DNA of 64,000 nt from Escherichia phage chee24. Location of the stretch: the sequence record NC_047885.1, one strand, 5' to 3'. A program made the translations under genes and the position numbers. How positions within the stretch are numbered: position 1 is the first letter of the stretch; the number at the start of each line of letters is the position of its first letter. The notes below the pieces were generated by a model that saw only the letters and a list, made by a program, of their open reading frames with translations, was not told the origin of the DNA and did no database searches. This document shows positions 2,640-54,783 of this stretch, piece by piece.

Positions 2640-2663
2640 CCGAGTCATTTTGGCTCGGTTTTA
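2640..2663 (+). terminator. rho-independent terminator
   Basis: Hairpin CCGAGTC-ATTTT-GGCTCGG followed by TTTTA, 25 nt after the stop of 2223..2615. Confidence 0.6.
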
Positions 2664-2706
2664 TCCGTACTCAAGACCAATGATAGCACCATCCGGAAAA
2701 TTTTAC

Positions 2707-2735
2707 TTGCATGATGCCCAAAATCTTGATATAAT
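2707..2735 (+). promoter_or_regulatory. sigma70-type promoter (TTGCAT-17-TATAAT, TG-extended -10)
   Basis: -35 TTGCAT about 2707-2712 and -10 TATAAT about 2730-2735 with TG two nt upstream; same downstream box (ATTTATATTGAATTGAGAG) as the other promoters here. Confidence 0.55.
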
Positions 2736-3234
2736 ATTTATATTGAATTGAGAGACATTAGTAAAAATTGATTTTGCTAATTTTTCTTGTTTACAATCCG
2801 CGATACGGAACAGTTAGGCTGCCCCATTAAGGGTTGTTTTAACTGTTACGTGTTAGTTTTTAAACAAATAGTTAATAGAATACTTAGCGATCTGCGTCCC
2901 GTAGGAACCCTGGTAAGGCCTCGAAGCAACCTAGATAGAGGTGGTTGTGAAGTGAGACGGGAGGAGTGAAAAACTCCGAGACGTGATTCTGTAAGTTATA
3001 TTGCATCTAGTATGAGCTAGTATATGAAGCATTAGGTGAGCAAATCTGGCTTAGCGGCCATCCTCAAGGATTTGTGCGGTATAGCAAAGCAGCAGCGCAG
3101 CGTGAAAGTGGAAGTTGCCACCCCACTTCAGTATTTGCGATTAATTTGTTGAGAAATTGACAGTAACAGTTGTTCTATTCTTTCTGAATAGTCCTAAAGA
3201 AAACTTATTTCATTTCCAACACAGGAGTATTGTT

Positions 3235-6024
3235 GTGTTTTCAATCCTACAAGGTCATGCAGGATTTCATCGCGATTTAGCCACAGGCAATTGGCGAGAA
3301 GTTAAAGCAGAAGATTATCTTTTTGCTAAAAGATTTTCCTCAAAGCATCCTGAAGGTAAACCAGCTTCAATGCCCTTCAAGTTTGATGTAATTGACGAAG
3401 TTGATCCTCAAACCCTAGTAGAAATGCTTCCTCTTATGAGACGTTTAACGTCTGACCCTCATATCGTTGCGGTACGAGGTCGATGTCTTGCACCTAAAAA
3501 TAATGTGCGACGTAAGAAGGGCAACTTTAATGTATCTAATCCAAGTCATATAATCGCAATGGATGTGGATGGTATTGTAGATACAGGAGGTTGTAACAAG
3601 TTTGATCTTGTTGGCATGGCGCGTCATATTATTAGGATGTTGAATAGTATTAGTGAGGATATGTTTCCTCTTGATGCAGGGTTTATTGCTCATGCATCAT
3701 CTTCGGCTGGACTAAAACCAGGTATCCGAATGCACTTAATACTAGAATCTAATGTTAAAGTTACACAGGGCCAGATCAAGTTCTTATTTACATCTATCAA
3801 CGAAAGTAGTAGACAAAAGTATGGTTTTGATATTGCCGACTTAGCTTATTACTCTTCCGTACAGCTCCACTATTTTGCAGATCCTTTATTTACTGATGGT
3901 ATAGTTGATCCGTTTAAAGCGGAGAGTGCTTCACGTCTGGTATTTGTTAAAGGCTCAAAAGTAAATTTACCTAATAATCTAGTTGACTATGAAACAACTA
4001 GAGGAGAGTTTAAAGAGGAATTCTACTCTTTACTCGATCAAATTAAAGGTAAAAAAGCTGCCTCTGATAAAGTAGAGGAAACTATCAGTGAGCTAGAAGA
4101 GGCTGATGATGGGGTATACTTACGTATTATTCCAAAGCTATATCACCGAGCGTTAGAGGATGGGGTAGATTTTGGTTGGCTAGAGAAAGAAATCCGCCCA
4201 GCTTTATCAGAATATATTGCAACTAAAGATAATAGCCGTAATATTCAGGATTATTTCAATAACGGACGGAAGCAGGCATTAAAAGCCTTTGTGAATAACT
4301 CTAAGCGTGAGATCCCTGAAGTATTAAAAGGTATCCCCCTTAAAAAGCTAGAAACTAACTCACTAGAGACCGACAACTTCTTGAAATTAAATACTGTACC
4401 ACCAGAAGGCTATATGACTTTTGTAAAAGCAAGTCTAGGTACAGGTAAAACCACGGCTGTTGTTCGTTGGCTGGATTCAGGGGTTATTAAAGGTAATTTC
4501 TTAGCAATTACCAATACTAGGGCACTAGTGTCTTCAAATGCTAAGAAATTTAGCGCAGGTCAATATGATAAATCTGTAGATATGCTCAACTTTAAACGTG
4601 GGGCTATTGATCGTATGTCCACAACCATTCACTCTTTGCATAAGTTTAAGAGTTTTATTGGTCAAATTGATGCAATCTTTATAGATGAATGTGATGCAGT
4701 AATGAATGACCTATTATTCGCCCCGGTTGTTAAGCAACGTCGCGAGTGTATTCAGGTTCTTCGAGATATTCTTGCAACTGCAAAAATAATTATATTATCT
4801 GATGGAGATATTAGTGCAGAAACAATTGAAGCATATGGTTCTTTGATTGAGTTTGATAAACCAGTTGCATTTTACAATCACCACCGTAAAATGTTATCAA
4901 AGGCTCATGCTTATGAGTTTCCTGATGAATCCAGTATTTGGGTTGCACTTCAAACATCACTAGAGATGGGTGAGAAATCTATTCTAGTATCTGATTGTGG
5001 CCCTGATGAGCTGAATGAGAAGGGTATGGCACTACGTCGTAATACTGGTGCGTTAGTTAAGGAAATCCATTCAAACTCTACCTCAGATGTGGATATTCGA
5101 CGTATTCTGGATTATACAACTAATGAGCTAATTGATCAACAAATTGATTGCTTATTATGTAGTCCATCCGTAACGAGTGGTGTTGACTTCAACTATTTTG
5201 ATAACGTATTCGTTATTACTAGAACCAGTAATCAAGCGCCAAACATGCGTTTTCAAGCAATCAGGCGCGACCGTGGTGCTCAGAACATCTATTATTTTAT
5301 TGATAAATCCACTAGTGGATTCTCCGCAGGTTCTGAACAATATAATATTGATGAAGGTTGGCTGGAGTTAGCACAGCAATTATACGCACGTCGCAGGGAG
5401 CTGGAATCTAGAAACTATACTAGTACCTTACGTTATTACTTGCTTGATCAGGGTGCAACTATTGATATTTTCAGCGAAAGCTGGGGAACTATTGAAGGTG
5501 CTGGTAAAGAGTACACAGAAGAGCGAATCAAAGCTATTCTACATTCAACCCCGGATTATTGTGCTCCACGTCATGCGGATGCGTATGAAGCTAAACTACT
5601 TCTTGTTCGCTATTATCATCTTGAGTCTATTAAAGATGTAACAGTTGAGCATGTTGAACAATATATCAAAGATAAACCGAATGATCGAGCTGCATTCTTC
5701 CATAAGATGCACGAGATGTTCTGGGAAGATATTAAGAAGTGTTCAAATATAACCATTAAACCATTCATAGAAGCTCTAAAAGGTAAGAAAAAGGACTTCT
5801 TCCTTAAAACAGGTCAGAGTGCTAACCCAAAATATGCTAGAATGTATCTTGGTATGATGGGTATCGGTAAGGATATGAACACTGAAAATATCGTAGACTG
5901 GTATAGAACCTACTGCAAAATCGAGTGTATGCCAATTCCTTATAAGTTCATGACTGATGAGGAAAAACATATGCACGATGAAGCAATGTCAGAACTAGGT
6001 GCTAGAAATGACAGTGAAGAATAA
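3235..6024 (+). CDS. replication protein: AEP primase-polymerase-like N-terminal domain fused to a P-loop helicase/ATPase (origin-binding-protein-like)
   Basis: Longest ORF begins at TTG 3157; the likelier start is GTG 3235 (AGGAG 7 nt upstream). N-terminal HIIAMDVDG (AEP DxD-like) and AHASSSAGLKPGIRMH; Walker A SLGTGKTT and Walker B IFIDECDAV mid-protein. Confidence 0.6.
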   Translation: MFSILQGHAGFHRDLATGNWREVKAEDYLFAKRFSSKHPEGKPASMPFKFDVIDEVDPQTLVEMLPLMRRLTSDPHIVAVRGRCLAPKNNVRRKKGNFNVSNPSHIIAMDVDGIVDTGGCNKFDLVGMARHIIRMLNSISEDMFPLDAGFIAHASSSAGLKPGIRMHLILESNVKVTQGQIKFLFTSINESSRQKYGFDIADLAYYSSVQLHYFADPLFTDGIVDPFKAESASRLVFVKGSKVNLPNNLVDYETTRGEFKEEFYSLLDQIKGKKAASDKVEETISELEEADDGVYLRIIPKLYHRALEDGVDFGWLEKEIRPALSEYIATKDNSRNIQDYFNNGRKQALKAFVNNSKREIPEVLKGIPLKKLETNSLETDNFLKLNTVPPEGYMTFVKASLGTGKTTAVVRWLDSGVIKGNFLAITNTRALVSSNAKKFSAGQYDKSVDMLNFKRGAIDRMSTTIHSLHKFKSFIGQIDAIFIDECDAVMNDLLFAPVVKQRRECIQVLRDILATAKIIILSDGDISAETIEAYGSLIEFDKPVAFYNHHRKMLSKAHAYEFPDESSIWVALQTSLEMGEKSILVSDCGPDELNEKGMALRRNTGALVKEIHSNSTSDVDIRRILDYTTNELIDQQIDCLLCSPSVTSGVDFNYFDNVFVITRTSNQAPNMRFQAIRRDRGAQNIYYFIDKSTSGFSAGSEQYNIDEGWLELAQQLYARRRELESRNYTSTLRYYLLDQGATIDIFSESWGTIEGAGKEYTEERIKAILHSTPDYCAPRHADAYEAKLLLVRYYHLESIKDVTVEHVEQYIKDKPNDRAAFFHKMHEMFWEDIKKCSNITIKPFIEALKGKKKDFFLKTGQSANPKYARMYLGMMGIGKDMNTENIVDWYRTYCKIECMPIPYKFMTDEEKHMHDEAMSELGARNDSEE

Positions 6025-50946: not shown

Positions 50947-52704
50947 TTAGGTAAGGCGTTGAACTGTTACTCTTAATCTAGGTAGGAAAACTGCGCTACC
51001 CAAACTCACGTGCATAACTACTCCTAACTCCACATTTCCATTTCCTAAATTTTTAATAGTGTATATAAAACTGTTTCTACTTAGAGCATTGTTAGGTGTA
51101 TATCTAAAAGCAGATGTAGTATGAAAAGGTACTAGATAGCCCACAGGTAGCGTTAAAATCTGGTGGAATATTGCATCCCCGCCGCTATAGCTATATGCTC
51201 TTCTTCCTTGCACTTGAAACACACCATTATTCCATGTATTAGCTGGAACACCCGCACAATTAAGATTACCTGATATAACTTCAGTAGTAAGAATTACTGT
51301 AGCATTTCCGCCTGGTATACCTAGCCCAATAGTTGATAAACCAACGTATCTATCACCCGTTCCTGGGTAGCTGGGAGTAATATCATCTCCCATATAAGAA
51401 CTACCTACATTTCCACCAAAAAGTCGCAGTGGAACTGCTGAGGGTCCCCAAACAACTCCATGCTCATTACCAATAGTATTATCGTTAGAGTTTACATACC
51501 ACTGTTTACCTACTCCGAATCTATAAATACTAATTTGAGATTTAGCTCCTCCATAATCTACAGGAGACCACAACCCTCCATTACTAGACCCTACAAGTTC
51601 ACATCTTGCCGTGGTATCACCAAAAACCCCGGTATACGCTGCGTTATTTCCTATATACTCCATATCAGGACGGTAACCTAGGTTACCAAAAGCATTCTGA
51701 TTTATAAATTTATATCCGGTATTAGGGAGACTCACCCCTTTAATTATGAAGTTAGAAGGCGATATAAGAATATCAGAACCAGTAAAGGGGTTGCCTGAAA
51801 TACTCATTCCACCATTAGAGTACCTTAAATTAAGAACATACCAAATAACCTTAGTAGGAGTTATATTATACCAGTCCTGTATTACCGTAGGATTGCCAGA
51901 CTGGTTGGCCAGATTAGTAGTAGATCCCCTACAAACAAATCTGTTCCCACCGTCGTGGTACATAGTATTTACATTACCTGGGAGCCCTTGCCTAACCCCA
52001 CCATATCCACGTATATTAGAATTGCAGACATAAAACCAATCATGCCCTCTATGCGCTGCTCCTAGAGGTGACATCCATCCAGGATCCCAATAGTACGGGT
52101 TATTGCCATCTATAGGTACTGTGCTACTATTAGTAGGAAAACCTAATTGTGCAAAAGCTTCTGCAACAGTAATACCTACAGGAGCTCCCGCACCGGGCCT
52201 AACTATCCCATGGTAGGTACTATGTAACGTAGTACCCCCTGTACCACTCCTAGAGATAGATTCTTCGTGCCCTAGAGAGGGATTATAATTATAAGTGCCG
52301 GATGCTAGACTATTACCAAAGGCAAATCCACTGGTTTGAGAAACACTAGCAAAAGATCTAAAGGGATCTGCTTGAGTGGCAACTATAGTTTGACCAACCT
52401 TACTCTGAGTACCATTAAGAAAAGCTCTGTGAGTGCCGTTAATTTCAATAGCAGTTAGTATAACTCTACCAGGATCATTAGATTTAATATTTACTATATC
52501 AGGAGGCATCTGACATACGAAAAACCCATTTCCGGCATCACCTAATCCTACCTCATAAGTACCATCAACTAGAACAAATGGCATATCACTATGAAAAATA
52601 CTATTGGCATTTGGACTATAGTGACGATTAATGTCACCACCAGATTCAGTATTTAAAGATAGTACGGTCTTACCATCGCTATATTTTCCAGCGAAAAAAC
52701 CCAT
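50947..52704 (-). CDS. receptor-binding tail protein (T5 pb5-like)
   Basis: 585 aa, Gly/Asn/Ser/Thr-rich beta protein; divergently adjacent to the llp-like lipoprotein gene, the conserved RBP/llp arrangement of T5-like phages. Confidence 0.55.
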
Positions 52705-52729
52705 ATAATCTCCTATTATAAAAATGTAT

Positions 52730-52758
52730 TTGCTTTCATCTCTCTATTTTGCTATAAT
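52730..52758 (+). promoter_or_regulatory. sigma70-type promoter for the llp-like gene
   Basis: TTGCTT TCATCTCTCTATTTTGC TATAAT then AGATTCATAAATTAGAAATGGAGAG; near-duplicate of the PN25-like promoter. Confidence 0.7.
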
Positions 52759-52789
52759 AGATTCATAAATTAGAAATGGAGAGATAAAT

Positions 52790-53056
52790 ATGAAAAAGTT
52801 TGTGATTGCACTAGTTGCCACAGTTATGTTATCTGGTTGTGCACCTGCCCCCAAACCATTTTGTATGGGATTTGTAAAATCTTTTGGTGGTGCGGGAGAG
52901 GAACATTACGGCCTCAAGGTTCAAAAAGTTCGTATTAAGGGAGATCGCTTTCCAGTAGTACAGCTCCGTACTAAGTTTGGGTGGTGGGATCTCAGTCAGT
53001 TTGACCTTAAATATGGTGATTGTAAATTTAAACTAGAGCAATCTAATTACCTGTAA
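52790..53056 (+). CDS. llp: Llp-like lipoprotein (candidate receptor-blocking superinfection-exclusion protein)
   Basis: 88 aa; signal peptide with lipobox MKKFVIALVATVMLSGC; strong T5-type promoter and RBS GGAGAG; adjacent to the RBP gene. Confidence 0.7.
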   Translation: MKKFVIALVATVMLSGCAPAPKPFCMGFVKSFGGAGEEHYGLKVQKVRIKGDRFPVVQLRTKFGWWDLSQFDLKYGDCKFKLEQSNYL

Positions 53057-53232
53057 TTAGTATAAAACAAAAAGACATCCAAGTAAACTAAATTTTTTAT
53101 TTCTTGGACGGTATACTGGCAGAAAACACTATATAAGAAAAGTAGAAGTCCTTCTAGGAGTTCATAGGCACGGTTGGTTGTGCACAAGTTATAGGATATT
53201 TCAAATACCACACTTATAGGAGCATGAAAGAT

Positions 53233-53361
53233 ATGTCAAACAAAAGAAAGAGCAGACGCGGAGAGGTGTACGATAGCTGGATTAATAGTTTTGGACTTGG
53301 GACTATCCTATTCTTTATTTTCGTAGGTTTTTGGTTAGCAGCTATGGCGGGGTGGATTTAA
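53233..53361 (+). CDS. small single-pass membrane protein (42 aa)
   Basis: Not in the >=60-aa ORF track. ATG at 53233 (alternative in-frame ATG at 53224) after TAGGAG; basic N-terminus then a hydrophobic helix (ILFFIFVGFWLAAMAGWI); stop overlaps the next start (TAATG). Confidence 0.4.
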   Translation: MSNKRKSRRGEVYDSWINSFGLGTILFFIFVGFWLAAMAGWI

Positions 53362-53468
53362 TGGAATGGGTAATTATTGCATTACTAGGGGTTGTGATTA
53401 TTGGGCAATGTATTTTAGATAATCACTTAGCTAGAATTGAAACTTTATTAACGGAGAAACGTAAATGA
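53361..53468 (+). CDS. small single-pass membrane protein (35 aa)
   Basis: Not in the ORF track. N-terminal hydrophobic helix MEWVIIALLGVVIIG; translationally coupled to flanking ORFs. Confidence 0.4.
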   Translation: MEWVIIALLGVVIIGQCILDNHLARIETLLTEKRK

Positions 53469-53659
53469 TGGAAGTAGTAGCTACACTAATAGTAATACTA
53501 GTCTGGGCAACTTTCATTGTTTCTTATAACGCGTATGTTCGCCTAAAAACCCTAGAGGCTCAGGTAAAACAGCAACAATTTGCTATAGAAAAAGTAGTAG
53601 AACTGCAACGTTGTGATAGTATCCGTATTCTGCAAATTGAGAGGGAGTTAGATGTTTAG
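53465..53659 (+). CDS. small membrane protein (64 aa)
   Basis: N-terminal TM helix (VVATLIVILVWATFIV) then a coiled-coil-like tail; ATGA overlap with the upstream stop. Confidence 0.45.
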   Translation: MMEVVATLIVILVWATFIVSYNAYVRLKTLEAQVKQQQFAIEKVVELQRCDSIRILQIERELDV

Positions 53660-53897
53660 TATTGTAATTGCTTTTATTATCGGGGTAATCGCGGGAGTTT
53701 TCGGGACGACTGCGGCAATCAATAAGCATCGTAAATATATTGCGGAAGTATCGCGGGAGATTGCGGAAAGGGAGCGGAAGTTTGACGAGAAACGTGAGAA
53801 GTTTGAGCGGGAGTGGTCGGATGGATCTCGGGCGTCGCGGAAGAGATTCCGTGAGTTCAGACCAGAACACAGGTTTGATGACCCTTCTATGCGCTAA
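53652..53897 (+). CDS. small membrane protein (81 aa) with charged C-terminal tail
   Basis: N-terminal TM helix (MFSIVIAFIIGVIAGVFG) then an Arg/Glu/Lys-rich segment; GC-rich codon usage unlike the early/late regions. Confidence 0.45.
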   Translation: MFSIVIAFIIGVIAGVFGTTAAINKHRKYIAEVSREIAERERKFDEKREKFEREWSDGSRASRKRFREFRPEHRFDDPSMR

Positions 53898-53954
53898 TTT
53901 GACTTTTGCCAAATTTCATAAGATTACACATGGAGGTGTGTCCAGTGGCCCTCC

Positions 53955-54000
53955 AGATGAGAATGAGTCTCATTACCGCCCGGTACTTAGCAGGCTAATA
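53955..54000. repeat. about 45-bp element (ATGAGAATGAGTCTCAT palindrome + TTAGCAGGCTAA), homologous to 63183..63235
   Basis: About 80 percent identical by eye to the element at 63183-63235, same orientation, about 9.2 kb away. Confidence 0.45.
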
Positions 54001-54048
54001 GTCACGGCATGTTATCATTACACACCGTGACTATTTCAACTTTAATTA

Positions 54049-54783
54049 TTACGCAACTTTTAATTTCTCAATATATTGTTGCGGGCTGCAACTATATTCT
54101 GCGCGTTCTTCTTCGGTCATACCTTCCCAACATAATTGCAGGCGGTCGGCTAGGAACTGATAATCATTATCATCCTCAAGAGATTCATCAATAAAGGTTT
54201 CACCTATCAATGTCACGCCGATTGATAGAATATCGTTAACGGCTTGTGCGTCCAGCGTTTTAAATCCGTATGACGCTGCCGCTGATAGCACGCCTTTATG
54301 ATCATCAATCATTGTAAAATCAGCGTTCGGATATAATTGTTTGAATAGCCCAAAATAGTAACTTTTATAAACTGCGTCTTTGCTGTGGTATATCTCGCTA
54401 ACTTTATCAGCCTCAAAATATTTGTGTAGTGTATCGCGGGAAAATACACGGATATTACTATCACCACGACCGCGCAAGCCTTGTTTGCGCAAATAATAAT
54501 AGTCCGACTTGCTCATCAGTCGAGCGGTGCAAATAATGTTTAATGTATTTGCGTCATTCATGCACTGGCGCATATATGTAACAAGGGGCAATAAAGTATC
54601 TTGCATTATTAAATCATGTTTGCAGGCTTCATTTTTATACTTATTTAAATCTAAATTGCCCTCGCTATCAAAGCAAGGCGCTACACGATGGAAAGAATTA
54701 ATGATAGTGCCGTCCAGATCCCAAATCATGACGCGGGAAATATGCGGGAAATTACGGGTAATATTCATTTTAACTTGATTCAT
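54049..54783 (-). CDS. HAD-superfamily phosphatase, candidate 5'-deoxyribonucleotidase (T5 Dmp-like)
   Basis: 244 aa; HAD motif I IWDLDGTIINS; pre-early position next to the A1-like gene. Specific substrate is inferred from T5 knowledge. Confidence 0.5.
   Translation of the reverse strand: MNQVKMNITRNFPHISRVMIWDLDGTIINSFHRVAPCFDSEGNLDLNKYKNEACKHDLIMQDTLLPLVTYMRQCMNDANTLNIICTARLMSKSDYYYLRKQGLRGRGDSNIRVFSRDTLHKYFEADKVSEIYHSKDAVYKSYYFGLFKQLYPNADFTMIDDHKGVLSAAASYGFKTLDAQAVNDILSIGVTLIGETFIDESLEDDNDYQFLADRLQLCWEGMTEEERAEYSCSPQQYIEKLKVA

What the first reader, a model, noticed from the sequence alone, without database searches (positions are those of the whole stretch)
53224..53897. Translationally coupled cluster of four tiny transmembrane proteins
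Four consecutive ORFs of 42, 35, 64 and 81 aa each begin with a predicted single TM helix and are linked by TAATG/ATGA overlaps; two are below the 60-aa cutoff of the ORF track. They sit at the start of the GC-rich terminal-repeat-like block, directly after llp. Candidate roles are membrane remodelling during two-step DNA entry, superinfection exclusion or lysis timing.
Basis: seen in the sequence. Interest (0 to 1): 0.5.

Follow-up and report, generated by a model that had tools for sequence, protein, structure and literature searches.

The report
Four tiny T5 membrane-protein genes
The four tiny overlapping genes are real, conserved inner-membrane protein genes of T5-like phages, already annotated in phage T5 as T5.159-T5.162; they are dispensable in the laboratory and their function is still unknown.

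Summary
The window is the right-hand 64 kb of a T5-like coliphage (pork27/pork29, 100% identity). The four + strand ORFs exist: 53233-53361 (42 aa), 53361-53468 (35 aa), 53465-53659 (64 aa) and 53652-53897 (81 aa). They are joined by TAATG, ATGA and ATGTTTAG overlaps. Each has one strongly hydrophobic segment. They are the homologues of T5.159-T5.162, each annotated in the T5 reference genome as "contains single transmembrane domain", and each has its own PHROG family of unknown function.

In 25 related loci the frames are intact, dN/dS is 0.12-0.37 and the overlaps are conserved, so these are genuine genes. The cassette varies from 3 to 5 genes. It is confined to T5-like phages of enterobacteria (about 420-450 GenBank records), and an exhaustive profile search found no outside relatives.

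Corrections to the finding:
- The cluster lies before the terminal repeat, not in it.
- It is not GC-rich.
- ORF1's transmembrane helix is C-terminal.

A published knock-down screen scores all four T5 genes as having no fitness effect. Published RNA-seq shows no transcription while only first-step DNA is inside the cell, which argues against a role in the phage's own DNA entry.

My best guess, at low confidence, is an llp-linked accessory inner-membrane complex that protects the infected cell. Verdict: already known genes, modest interest.

The parts
52730..52758 (+). Probable sigma-70 promoter of llp and, by inference, of the whole llp-ORF4 unit: TTGCTT, 17-nt spacer, TGcTATAAT (extended -10).
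   Evidence: Read directly from the sequence. The T5 record annotates a promoter at the equivalent place upstream of its llp and none between llp and T5.159. The consensus scan missed it because the -35 matches only 3 of 6.
52790..53056 (+). llp-type lytic-conversion lipoprotein (88 aa, lipobox LSGC). This is context: it is the upstream gene on the same strand.
   Evidence: PHROG 1119 'Cor superinfection exclusion protein' at E 4.7e-25 and Pfam LPAM_1. It has no tblastn match in T5 itself, so it is a different receptor-blocking type from T5 Llp.
53057..53232 (+). Spacer between llp and ORF1. No convincing terminator or consensus promoter. AGGAG at 53218-53222 lies 10 nt before the conserved ORF1 start.
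   Evidence: Fold z-score is -0.68. No + strand terminator or promoter was found here by the scan. Only the last ~50 nt are conserved across relatives that have different upstream genes.
53233..53361 (+). ORF1, 42 aa, homologue of T5.159. Basic N-tail (KRKSRRGE) followed by a C-terminal TM helix, with an invariant FWLAAMAGW motif. It is the most constrained member.
   Evidence: 100% amino-acid identity to T5.159. PHROG 8596 at E 3.8e-32. dN/dS 0.12. Found in 446 phage records. TM at residues 22-38, mean KD 2.29; K+R in the flanks is 2.0 on the N side and 0 on the C side.
53361..53468 (+). ORF2, 35 aa, homologue of T5.160. N-terminal TM at residues 3-19, then a short charged helix (LARIETLLTEKRK). 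Its start overlaps the ORF1 stop (TAATG).
   Evidence: PHROG 6369 at E 1.4e-26. dN/dS 0.21. The TAATG junction is present in 23/25 loci. A 51-aa paralogue sits beside it in some relatives.
53465..53659 (+). ORF3, 64 aa, homologue of T5.161. N-terminal TM at residues 4-20, then a 44-residue heptad-like helix ending in an invariant ERELDV. ATGA overlap with ORF2. This is the optional member of the cassette.
   Evidence: PHROG 5851 at E 3.5e-34. dN/dS 0.37. Absent in 7 of 25 loci. Found in 309 phage records, against 446 for ORF1. The database name 'tail assembly protein' has no evidence behind it.
53652..53897 (+). ORF4, 81 aa, homologue of T5.162. N-terminal TM with a GxxxGxxG face, then a long highly charged helix (net +5) and a variable disordered tail. 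8-nt overlap ATGTTTAG with ORF3.
   Evidence: PHROG 6447 'membrane protein' at E 2.8e-46. AlphaFold2 predicts a single helix over residues 2-69 with pLDDT about 80. dN/dS 0.35. The tail after about residue 67 is swapped where an HNH endonuclease gene is inserted downstream. Pfam LapA_dom scores 23.7 bits, below the gathering score of 28.
53914..53932 (+). Highly conserved non-coding 19-mer, TTTCATAAGATTACACATG, between the cluster and the terminal repeat.
   Evidence: Exact match in 22 of 34 fetched loci, including divergent ones, and always after the last gene before the repeat. The T5 record places the start of the right terminal repeat 6 nt after it.
53999..54033 (+). Stable hairpin followed by a T-rich stretch. 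It is the likely transcription terminator of the unit, possibly shared with the convergent dmp gene. It ends exactly at the annotated start of the right terminal repeat.
   Evidence: The fold of 53890-54060 gives -46.8 kcal/mol, z = -3.43, with three hairpins. The left end of the pork29 genome maps to window position 54033.

Best explanation
Shown:
- The region is a conserved operon-like cassette of four real genes, the homologues of T5.159-T5.162.
- The genes encode very small single-pass membrane proteins.
- Their stop and start codons overlap in a conserved way.

Inferred from anatomy:
- The cassette is transcribed after second-step DNA transfer, most likely by read-through from the sigma-70 extended -10 promoter of llp. 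I found no terminator and no consensus promoter between llp and ORF1. Transcription probably ends at the hairpin at 53999-54033.
- Translational coupling yields the four proteins in fixed proportions.
- By the positive-inside rule, ORF1 is tail-anchored with its basic N-tail in the cytoplasm. ORF2-4 insert N-out/C-in, so all helical and charged segments face the cytoplasm.
- The proteins probably assemble through their TM helices (GxxxG-type faces) and coiled-coil-like segments into one hetero-oligomeric inner-membrane complex.

Inferred function, low confidence:
- This is an accessory module, not needed for growth on a naive laboratory host. It complements the receptor-specific Llp block by protecting the infected cell at the inner membrane.
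- The protection could be exclusion of DNA entry by superinfecting phages whatever receptor they use, or stabilisation of the energised membrane.

The anatomical part (real, coupled, membrane-inserted, accessory) I hold at about 0.9. The protective or exclusion function I hold at about 0.3.
For: - Identity and prior annotation.
- Intact frames in 25 loci, dN/dS 0.12-0.37, variation concentrated at third codon positions.
- Conserved overlaps and SD-like motifs.
- Hydrophobic segments and charge asymmetry (K+R is 0 on the N side and 2.6-3.6 on the C side for ORF2-4, reversed for ORF1).
- T5's genuine i-spanin, T5.045, by contrast has a basic N-tail before its TM.
- ORF4 modelled as one long helix.
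- Same strand as llp, opposite to the late morphogenesis genes; no terminator or promoter in the spacer. The T5 record annotates a promoter only upstream of llp.
- In relatives with a different upstream gene, ORF1 is simply coupled to whatever precedes it.
- Bas33 RNA-seq at 20 min: locus-wide read density of about 2.7 reads/nt against 4.1 for llp, and zero when infection is arrested at first-step transfer (PMC13250531).
- All four T5 genes score 'Not Fit' in the CRISPRi-ART knock-down screen (PMC11879866 supplementary file 16).
- ORF1 and ORF2 are 100% identical between this phage and T5, although the receptor-binding protein and llp differ completely. The module is therefore receptor-independent.
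- Retention appears near-universal. ORF1 is in 446 phage records, and about 440 records carry a dmp at 80% identity or more. This figure compares two separate counts, not a per-genome overlap.
- Gene number varies from 3 to 5 through paralogue gain and loss, which is typical of accessory loci.
Against: - There is no experimental or homology link to any exclusion protein. PADLOC, Pfam, NCBIfam and PHROGs give nothing significant.
- The topology is predicted only from hydropathy and charge. ORF2's charge bias is weak.
- Formation of a complex is inferred from gene coupling alone.
- Co-transcription with llp is inferred. The available RNA-seq is not strand-specific, and its per-gene counts swing about 500-fold between neighbouring genes. 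This is probably a counting artefact for tiny overlapping genes, but I could not verify that.
- 'Not Fit' fits any accessory role equally well.
Confidence: 0.35

Rival explanations
1. Host-takeover or counter-defence factors. The small membrane proteins bind and inhibit a host inner-membrane protein, for example a membrane-acting abortive-infection effector, a protease such as FtsH, or the division machinery. They would not be excluding other phages.
For: The genes are accessory and dispensable on a defence-poor laboratory strain, yet they appear to be retained almost universally. The copy number is variable and ORF4 has a fast-changing tail. The predicted cytoplasm-facing charged helices could dock onto host proteins. 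From general knowledge, T5 is subject to membrane-damaging abortive infection in ColIb-carrying cells; this work is cited in PMC10644984.
Against: No similarity to any known anti-defence protein or defence component. No escape-mutant or interaction data turned up in the literature searches. ORF1 and ORF2 are extremely conserved, at 100% between T5 and this phage, which is unlike typical arms-race genes.
Confidence: 0.2
2. Lysis-timing regulators: holin, antiholin or pinholin-like proteins, or modulators of the T5 holin or spanins.
For: The proteins are small, with a TM helix and a highly charged C-terminus (ORF4), and have glycine-zipper-like TM faces. ORF3 and its Sugarlandvirus positional analogue give weak hits to the N-terminal part of Rz-like spanin PHROGs, at E 0.078 and 0.014.
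Against: Those hits are not significant. A profile comparison of ORF3 with T5's own i-spanin gives a probability of 0.2%. T5 already has Rz-like spanins T5.044/045 elsewhere, and its holin and endolysin are likewise reported in a separate lysis cassette (PMC4342426). There is no endolysin nearby. Knock-down of any of the four has no fitness effect. The predicted N-out/C-in topology is the opposite of an i-spanin's.
Confidence: 0.15
3. Morphogenesis helpers. ORF3 is named 'tail assembly protein' and ORF4 or ORF1 'tail fiber protein' in many database records.
For: Only the names propagated in UniRef and GenBank and the proximity to the receptor-binding tail protein gene.
Against: No family or structural support exists for the names. 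The genes are on the opposite strand to the late morphogenesis block and on the same strand as the early gene llp. They are not listed among BF23 virion proteins (PMC10644984). Knock-down has no fitness effect, whereas, as I would expect from general knowledge (not checked in this screen), true assembly genes would reduce phage fitness when knocked down. ORF3 is naturally absent in about 30% of relatives.
Confidence: 0.04
4. Membrane remodelling for the phage's own two-step DNA entry.
For: Proximity to the terminal repeat and a membrane location.
Against: The genes lie outside the first-step-transfer DNA, in the last segment to enter. Their Bas33 homologues are silent when infection is held at first-step transfer. 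From general knowledge and PMC11879866, the functions needed for second-step transfer are A1 and A2, which lie within the repeat.
Confidence: 0.02
5. Chance ORFs or decaying remnants with no function.
For: The ORFs are very short. Two of the four are not annotated in the pork27 record. One relative has a truncated ORF3, and some metagenomic variants carry frameshifts.
Against: dN/dS is 0.12-0.37, the frames are intact and the overlaps conserved in 25 loci. Each ORF has a dedicated PHROG family with a full-length match. The genes are present in about 420-450 genomes.
Confidence: 0.02

Closest known systems
T5.159, T5.160, T5.161 and T5.162 of Escherichia phage T5 (NC_005859 / AY543070); PHROGs 8596, 6369, 5851 and 6447
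   Same: These are direct homologues in the same order, with the same lengths (42/35/64/81 aa), the same overlaps and the same position between llp and the right terminal repeat. ORF1 and ORF2 are 100% identical and ORF3 and ORF4 are 86% identical. The T5 record already notes 'contains single transmembrane domain' for each.
   Different: Nothing of substance differs. In the pork27 record only ORF2 and ORF3 are annotated. The neighbouring receptor-binding protein and llp are of a different type from T5's.
Llp / Cor-type receptor-blocking lipoproteins (lytic conversion, superinfection exclusion)
   Same: Llp is the adjacent gene on the same strand and probably shares the transcription unit. It is an accessory function that protects the infected cell, and from Decker et al. 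1994, as cited in PMC4342426, it is expressed early.
   Different: Llp is an outer-membrane lipoprotein specific for one receptor, and its type changes with the receptor-binding protein. The four small proteins have no lipobox, are predicted to sit in the inner membrane and do not change with receptor type.
Small inner-membrane superinfection-exclusion proteins of other phages, such as T4 Imm and Sp and HK97 gp15 (recalled from general knowledge, not tested here)
   Same: Similar size class, an N-terminal hydrophobic anchor, non-essential accessory status and expression before progeny release.
   Different: No detectable sequence relationship to anything outside T5-like phages. The known examples act as single proteins, not as a coupled set of 3-5. 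No exclusion phenotype has been shown for this cluster.
Rz-type i-spanins
   Same: An N-terminal TM helix followed by a coiled-coil-like helix. ORF3 gives a weak hit to PHROG 214, at E 0.078.
   Different: The proteins are much shorter: 35-81 aa against 147 aa for T5's own i-spanin. They have no basic N-tail, so the opposite topology is predicted. There is no partner lipoprotein gene embedded or overlapping. hhalign probability is 0.2%. T5 has its spanins elsewhere.
Bacterial bitopic 'TM plus cytoplasmic charged helix' proteins: the LapA domain (PF06305), and ZapG/YhcB-like and PspB-like proteins
   Same: ORF4 has the same architecture. 23 of 26 family members give a sub-threshold LapA_dom match, best E 4.6e-05.
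   Different: The score of 23.7 bits is below the curated cut-off of 28. The exhaustive profile search of 1.84 billion representatives found no bacterial relatives. The resemblance is probably compositional and architectural only.
Positional analogues in Sugarlandvirus (Klebsiella phage KpGranit, MN163280 111871-112559)
   Same: Two + strand genes, of 74 and 153 aa, lie between the receptor-binding protein gene and the right terminal repeat. Each begins with a TM helix followed by a helical segment, and the 74-aa protein starts MEVVIGALV, like ORF2 and ORF3.
   Different: There is no significant sequence similarity and the PHROG is different (37669). There are two genes rather than four, and no ORF1-like tail-anchored member.

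Membership tests
T5.159-T5.162 gene set (PHROGs 8596, 6369, 5851, 6447) | Full-length sequence similarity of each ORF to the corresponding T5 protein or PHROG profile | tested here: met
   E-values of 3.8e-32, 1.4e-26, 3.5e-34 and 2.8e-46, each covering the whole profile. Identity to the T5 proteins is 100/100/86/86%.
T5.159-T5.162 gene set (PHROGs 8596, 6369, 5851, 6447) | Synteny: same order and strand, between llp and the right terminal repeat, with overlapping stop and start codons | tested here: met
T5.159-T5.162 gene set (PHROGs 8596, 6369, 5851, 6447) | One hydrophobic transmembrane segment per protein | tested here: met
   Mean KD of 2.29-2.79 over 17 residues. TMHMM and DeepTMHMM were not available.
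Spanins (Rz-like i-spanin with an o-spanin partner) | Significant similarity to a spanin family | tested here: not met
   The best hit is PHROG 214 at E 0.078. hhalign against T5.045 gives a probability of 0.2%.
Spanins (Rz-like i-spanin with an o-spanin partner) | N-in/C-out topology with a long periplasmic coiled coil, and a cognate outer-membrane lipoprotein gene embedded, overlapping or adjacent | tested here: not met
   ORF2-4 have no basic N-tail and their K+R residues are concentrated after the TM. None of the four has a lipobox. llp is a receptor blocker. T5 spanins are annotated at T5.044/045.
Holins / antiholins | Membership of a holin family and linkage to an endolysin gene | tested here: not met
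   No holin hit in Pfam, PHROGs or NCBIfam. The neighbours are llp, pb5 and dmp.
Holins / antiholins | Lethal membrane permeabilisation on expression, and control of lysis time | not testable with these tools
   This needs induction and lysis-curve experiments. The only related data are the 'Not Fit' knock-down scores.
LapA domain (Pfam PF06305) | Score at or above the Pfam gathering threshold of 28 bits | tested here: not met
   23.7 bits for ORF4. 23 of 26 homologues match only at sub-threshold level.
Phage superinfection-exclusion proteins acting at the inner membrane | Sequence relationship to a known exclusion or defence protein | tested here: not met
   No PADLOC hits. No PHROG with such an annotation apart from llp itself.
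Phage superinfection-exclusion proteins acting at the inner membrane | Expression blocks DNA entry or plating of a challenging phage without blocking adsorption | not testable with these tools
   This needs plasmid expression and phage challenge.
Tail assembly protein (the name carried by ORF3 homologues in UniRef and GenBank) | Similarity to a characterised tail assembly or chaperone family, or a requirement for tail formation | tested here: not met
   No such family hit. 'Not Fit' on knock-down. Absent in 7 of 25 relatives. Not reported in the BF23 virion proteome.

The most novel reading that the evidence does not exclude
The cassette encodes a previously unrecognised multi-subunit inner-membrane exclusion or protection complex common to all T5-like phages of enterobacteria. 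Tiny tail-anchored and N-out/C-in subunits would assemble, through translational coupling, into a complex that blocks channel formation or DNA transfer by any superinfecting siphophage whatever its outer-membrane receptor. This would be a second, receptor-independent layer of lytic conversion beside Llp. The 3-5 gene variants would tune its specificity.
Probability: 0.2. Interest if true: 0.55.

Novelty: already known. Interest (0 to 1): 0.25.

Why it matters
If the four proteins were shown to form a receptor-independent protection or exclusion complex, that would add a second layer to the classic Llp lytic-conversion story. It would also give function to four of the many orphan genes of a model phage, and it would bear on how T5-like phages used in biocontrol cocktails interfere with each other.

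As it stands, the finding re-identifies annotated hypothetical genes. The practical value here is threefold:
- The genes are shown to be under purifying selection and apparently near-universal in the subfamily.
- Two of the four are missing from this genome's own GenBank annotation.
- The widespread names 'tail assembly protein' and 'tail fiber protein' attached to their homologues are unsupported.

Tried and rejected
- **Remote homology.** I ran phmmer-type searches for ORF4, ORF3 and ORF1 against 5.8 billion proteins and an exhaustive profile search of the ORF4 family against 1.84 billion representatives. Only T5-like phage proteins came back. The apparent 129-aa 'distant' hit P0078 is a frameshifted ORF4.
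- **Family libraries.** Pfam, NCBIfam and PADLOC gave nothing at or above threshold.
- **Paralogy of ORF3 with ORF2.** hhalign gave only 32% probability over 8 columns, so I do not claim it. The 51-aa extra gene in some relatives is a clear ORF2 paralogue.
- **Spanin idea.** Rejected.
- **Dedicated promoter upstream of ORF1.** The consensus scan and an alignment of the spacer gave no consistent -35/-10. The conserved ~50 nt upstream of ORF1 looks like the remnant of the 3' end of an ancestral upstream gene, which is still coding in L022 and L026.
- **Terminator after llp.** None found.
- **Rfam.** No family in 52700-54200.
- **Antisense 109-aa ORF (53583-53912).** Not conserved.
- **Literature.** No main-text mention of T5.159-162 anywhere in the library, and no paper on small membrane proteins of T5-like phages. 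The PhageExpressionAtlas paper does not mention T5 or its relatives. The accessory-gene screen 10.1101/2023.04.06.535777 does not mention T5-like or Tequintavirus accessory genes in its main text.
- **Per-gene TPMs from the Bas33 dataset.** I judged these unreliable for tiny overlapping genes and used only locus-level read density.
- **Structure search.** Not attempted, because a single long helix gives meaningless fold matches.
Full report
**What the window is.** A megablast of 53100-54050 gives 100% identity over its full length to five T5-like phages from meat (pork27, pork29, saus47N, saus111K, poul124; Tequintavirus chee24), and 88-94% identity to many other Tequintavirus and Epseptimavirus genomes. 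Coordinates match the last 64,000 bases of the 120,622-bp pork29 and saus47N records. The local gene order is:
- terminase, then the receptor-binding tail protein pb5 (50947-52704, minus strand)
- an llp-type lipoprotein (52790-53056, plus strand)
- the four small ORFs (plus strand)
- the right terminal repeat, beginning with dmp (54049-54783, minus strand)

**Checking the observation.** The four ORFs are present:

| ORF | Coordinates | Length | Junction with the previous ORF |
|---|---|---|---|
| ORF1 | 53233-53361 | 42 aa | — |
| ORF2 | 53361-53468 | 35 aa | TAATG |
| ORF3 | 53465-53659 | 64 aa | ATGA |
| ORF4 | 53652-53897 | 81 aa | ATGTTTAG (8 nt) |

It lies 1 nt after the AGGAG and is replaced by ACG, ATA or ATT in 8 of the 25 related loci compared, so 53233 is the conserved start.

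Each protein has one segment with a mean Kyte-Doolittle hydropathy of 2.3-2.8 over 17 residues. Only 11% of all small ATG-ORFs in the six frames of the window reach that level. In ORF2-4 the segment is at the extreme N-terminus. In ORF1 it is C-terminal (residues 22-38), after a basic tail.

Two statements in the finding are wrong.
- The cluster is not in the terminal repeat. The left genome end of pork29 maps to window position 54033, 136 nt after ORF4. By the T5 annotation the repeat would start at the equivalent of about 53935, still after ORF4.
- The cluster is not GC-rich. It is 41.5% GC, against 39.4% for the window and 40.3% for the repeat. Only ORF4 is raised (48%), because of its Arg, Glu and Gly codons.

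**Are they genes?** I fetched 25 non-redundant related loci: GenBank T5 and Kenya-K38, and 23 IMG/VR genomes at 75-95% identity.
- ORF1, ORF2 and ORF4 are present and intact in all 25. ORF3 is present in 18.
- Pooled Nei-Gojobori dN/dS is 0.12, 0.21, 0.37 and 0.35, compared with 0.18 for llp. Variable sites are concentrated at third codon positions.
- The junctions are conserved: TAATG in 23/25, ATGA in 15/18 (TAATG in the other 3), ATGTTTAG in 17/18. In the three-gene form ORF2 and ORF4 are joined by TAATG in 7/7. A GGAG- or GGTGG-type motif precedes each start.
- The 109-aa antisense ORF across ORF4 is interrupted by stops in 13 of 25 loci.

These are real, translationally linked genes.

**They are already annotated.** The T5 reference records (NC_005859, AY543070) list T5.159, T5.160, T5.161 and T5.162 at 110826-111490. 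Each ORF matches its own PHROG family end to end: 8596, 6369 and 5851 are 'unknown function', and 6447 is 'membrane protein'. In the pork27 record only ORF2 (from a GTG at 53352) and ORF3 are annotated, and ORF1 and ORF4 are missing. Many records and UniRef call the ORF3 homologue 'tail assembly protein', and some call neighbours 'tail fiber protein'. I found no evidence behind these names.

**Distribution.** tblastn against 50,697 phage records finds ORF1 in 446, ORF4 in 419 and ORF3 in 309. All are T5-like phages of Salmonella, Escherichia, Shigella, Citrobacter, Yersinia and the like. The neighbouring dmp gene is found in 907 records, including Vibrio, Klebsiella and Proteus phages. About 440 of those carry a dmp at 80% identity or more. 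The cluster therefore appears close to universal in the Markadamsvirinae-type phages and absent beyond them, although I compared counts rather than checking overlap genome by genome.

Searches of 5.8 billion proteins with ORF4, ORF3 and ORF1 return only this family. An exhaustive profile search of the ORF4 family against 1.84 billion representatives returns five proteins, all from the family itself.

Beyond the subfamily I looked at three cases:
- Klebsiella phage KpGranit (Sugarlandvirus) has, at the same position, two unrelated plus-strand genes of 74 and 153 aa. Each starts with a TM helix followed by a helical segment, so they are positional analogues.
- Vibrio phage phi 3 has no such genes there.
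- A divergent T5-like metagenomic contig keeps only an ORF1-like gene, coupled by TAGTG to an unrelated 35-aa hydrophobic ORF.

**Anatomy of the cassette.** The gene number varies.
- Fifteen of the 25 loci have four genes.
- Seven lack ORF3. These carry a 34-aa ORF2 variant ending RIERKLREYK or RGDK.
- Two, together with Bas33 and two metagenomic contigs, have an extra 51-aa gene between ORF1 and ORF2. This is a clear ORF2 paralogue (PHROG 6369, E 1.6e-16).
- One relative has a truncated ORF3.

An HNH homing-endonuclease gene is inserted directly after ORF4 in 8 of 25 loci. There it replaces the last ~14 residues of ORF4, so that tail is not critical.

ORF1 is the most constrained member, with an invariant FWLAAMAGW at the end of its TM. 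ORF4 has invariant or near-invariant G11, G15, G18 and A22 on one TM face, and a conserved charged helix running through EREWSDGSR. AlphaFold2 models ORF4 as one helix over residues 2-69 (pLDDT about 80) with a disordered tail.

**Topology (inferred).** Lys and Arg residues within 15 residues of the TM are distributed as follows:

| Protein | N side | C side |
|---|---|---|
| ORF1 | 2.0 | 0 |
| ORF2 | 0 | 3.6 |
| ORF3 | 0 | 3.3 |
| ORF4 | 0 | 2.6 |

ORF2-4 begin ME, MME and MF, with no basic residue before the helix. By the positive-inside rule (established knowledge) ORF1 is tail-anchored with a cytoplasmic N-tail, and ORF2-4 are N-out/C-in. All soluble parts would then face the cytoplasm. 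T5's genuine i-spanin, T5.045, starts MRKWFVDLVWNNK before its TM, which is the opposite arrangement.

**Expression (partly shown, partly inferred).**
- The cluster shares its strand with llp, opposite to the late morphogenesis genes.
- llp has a good extended -10 promoter: TTGCTT at 52730-35, a 17-nt spacer, and TGcTATAAT at 52750-58 (read). T5 annotates a promoter at the same place and none before T5.159, although that record does annotate promoters and terminators elsewhere.
- The 176-nt spacer has no terminator-like structure (z = -0.68) and no consensus promoter.
- In relatives with a different upstream gene, ORF1 is simply appended or coupled to it.
- Downstream, 53890-54060 folds into three hairpins (z = -3.43). 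The last, at 53999-54033, is followed by a T-rich run and is the likely terminator.

Published RNA-seq of the tequintavirus Bas33 at 20 min after infection (PMC13250531, Dataset S1) gives reads over the homologues bas33_0187-0191. The assignment was confirmed through bas33_0188 and through gene lengths and dmp adjacency. Locus-wide density is about 2.7 reads/nt, against 4.1 for llp and about 97 for the major capsid gene. Reads are essentially zero when daunorubicin arrests infection at first-step transfer.

Per-gene values swing from about 1 to about 460 TPM between neighbours. I attribute this to read assignment among tiny overlapping genes in a library that is not strand-specific, but that remains unverified. 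I conclude that the genes are transcribed only after second-step transfer, at a level similar to llp.

**Function.** The CRISPRi-ART transcriptome-wide knock-down screen of T5 (PMC11879866, supplementary file 16) scores T5.159, 160, 161 and 162 all as 'Not Fit', with mean guide fitness of -3.6 to -4.1 and KS p of 0.24-0.91. Its re-annotation lists them as unknown. They are therefore dispensable on a laboratory host, yet apparently retained throughout the subfamily and under purifying selection. That is the signature of an accessory function that matters in nature.

ORF1 and ORF2 are identical in T5 and in this phage, although the receptor-binding protein and llp are unrelated between the two. 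The function is therefore independent of the outer-membrane receptor.

- A role in the phage's own two-step DNA entry is effectively excluded by position and timing.
- A spanin role is excluded. T5 has Rz-like spanins at T5.044/045 (PMC4342426), there is no significant similarity, and the predicted topology is the opposite.
- A holin or antiholin role has no positive evidence.
- A morphogenetic role conflicts with strand, dispensability, natural loss of ORF3 and the BF23 virion proteome.

What remains is an inner-membrane accessory complex. I favour, at about 0.3, a protective or exclusion role that complements Llp at the inner membrane. Next, at about 0.2, comes inhibition of a host inner-membrane protein as counter-defence or takeover. 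Neither can be tested with sequence tools.

**Comparison with known systems.**
- The cluster is a member of the T5.159-162 gene set, with all defining features met.
- It resembles small inner-membrane exclusion proteins of other phages only in size and architecture. That comparison rests on my recall of general knowledge and shows no sequence relation.
- ORF4 resembles bacterial 'TM plus charged helix' proteins. LapA_dom scores 23.7 bits against a threshold of 28, and 23 of 26 homologues are sub-threshold. This fails the family threshold, and no bacterial relatives were found.

**Verdict.**
- Several details need correcting: the start coordinate, ORF1's topology, the third junction, the position relative to the repeat, and the GC content.
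- The function remains open.
- Novelty: already known.
- Interest: about 0.25. The main residual value is a testable hypothesis of a receptor-independent second layer of lytic conversion.

Noticed in passing
window 53914-53932, with hairpins up to 54033: A non-coding 19-mer, TTTCATAAGATTACACATG, is exactly conserved in 22 of 34 fetched loci. These include T5 and divergent Epseptimavirus-type genomes. It always follows whatever gene is last before the terminal repeat. The T5 record starts its right terminal repeat 6 nt after it. The pork29 record starts the repeat about 100 nt later, at 54033, immediately after a stable hairpin (fold z = -3.43 for 53890-54060). It is a candidate genome-end or terminase recognition signal, a terminator, or both. 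The two records disagree on where the repeat begins.
   Followed up: partly
L014, L016, L019, L020, L021, L024, L025 and L027, just after the ORF4 homologue (locus positions ~2660-3330): An HNH homing-endonuclease gene is inserted directly after, or overlapping, the 3' end of the ORF4 homologue in 8 of 25 relatives. It replaces the last ~14 residues of ORF4 with one of several alternative tails. This looks like a homing hot-spot at the edge of the terminal repeat.
   Followed up: partly
L013 2055-2210, L016 2055-2210, L028 909-1064, and Bas33 bas33_0190: Some relatives carry an extra 51-aa ORF2 paralogue (PHROG 6369) between ORF1 and ORF2. Others lack ORF3 and have a 34-aa ORF2 variant with a different C-terminus. 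The cassette therefore ranges from 3 to 5 genes.
   Followed up: yes
window 53233-53361 and 53652-53897: ORF1 and ORF4 are not annotated in the pork27 GenBank record (MF431731), which lists only ORF2 (from a GTG at 53352) and ORF3. Homologues elsewhere are widely named 'tail assembly protein' or 'tail fiber protein' with no supporting evidence.
   Followed up: yes
window 52730-52758: llp has an extended -10 promoter (TTGCTT, 17 nt, TGcTATAAT) that the consensus scan missed. The scan also reports a promoter-like site on the minus strand at 53087-53059, which would be antisense to llp.
   Followed up: no
window 50947-53056: The receptor-binding protein (585 aa) and the llp (88 aa) differ in type from those of T5: T5 pb5 is 640 aa, and the window's llp has no tblastn match in T5. 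The four small genes immediately downstream are nevertheless 86-100% identical to T5's. This implies a recombination boundary within the llp-ORF1 spacer.
   Followed up: partly
ORF4 homologues P0019, P0066, P0071 and P0022, P0068 (alignment A3): Several ORF4 homologues carry in-frame deletions of exactly seven residues, either in the charged helix (REIAERE) or in the TM helix (GVLAGVF). These are heptad-sized deletions that would preserve helical phase.
   Followed up: no
Bas33 genes bas33_0187-0191 in PMC13250531 Dataset S1: Neighbouring genes of the presumed single transcript show TPMs from about 1 to about 460. This is probably a read-assignment artefact for tiny overlapping genes, but stable processed RNA fragments are not excluded.
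   Followed up: no
L031 10144-10481 (Vibrio phage phi 3, KP280063 ~108143-108480): At the position where T5-like phages carry the small-gene cluster, this Vibrio demerecvirus has about three tandem copies of a ~115-136-nt repeat straddling the annotated start of its right terminal repeat.
   Followed up: no
L033 4001-4390: A divergent T5-like metagenomic contig keeps only an ORF1-like 40-aa gene. It is coupled by TAGTG to an unrelated 35-aa ORF with a C-terminal hydrophobic segment, followed by a short (GACAAGA)n tandem repeat and then the conserved pre-repeat element.
   Followed up: partly
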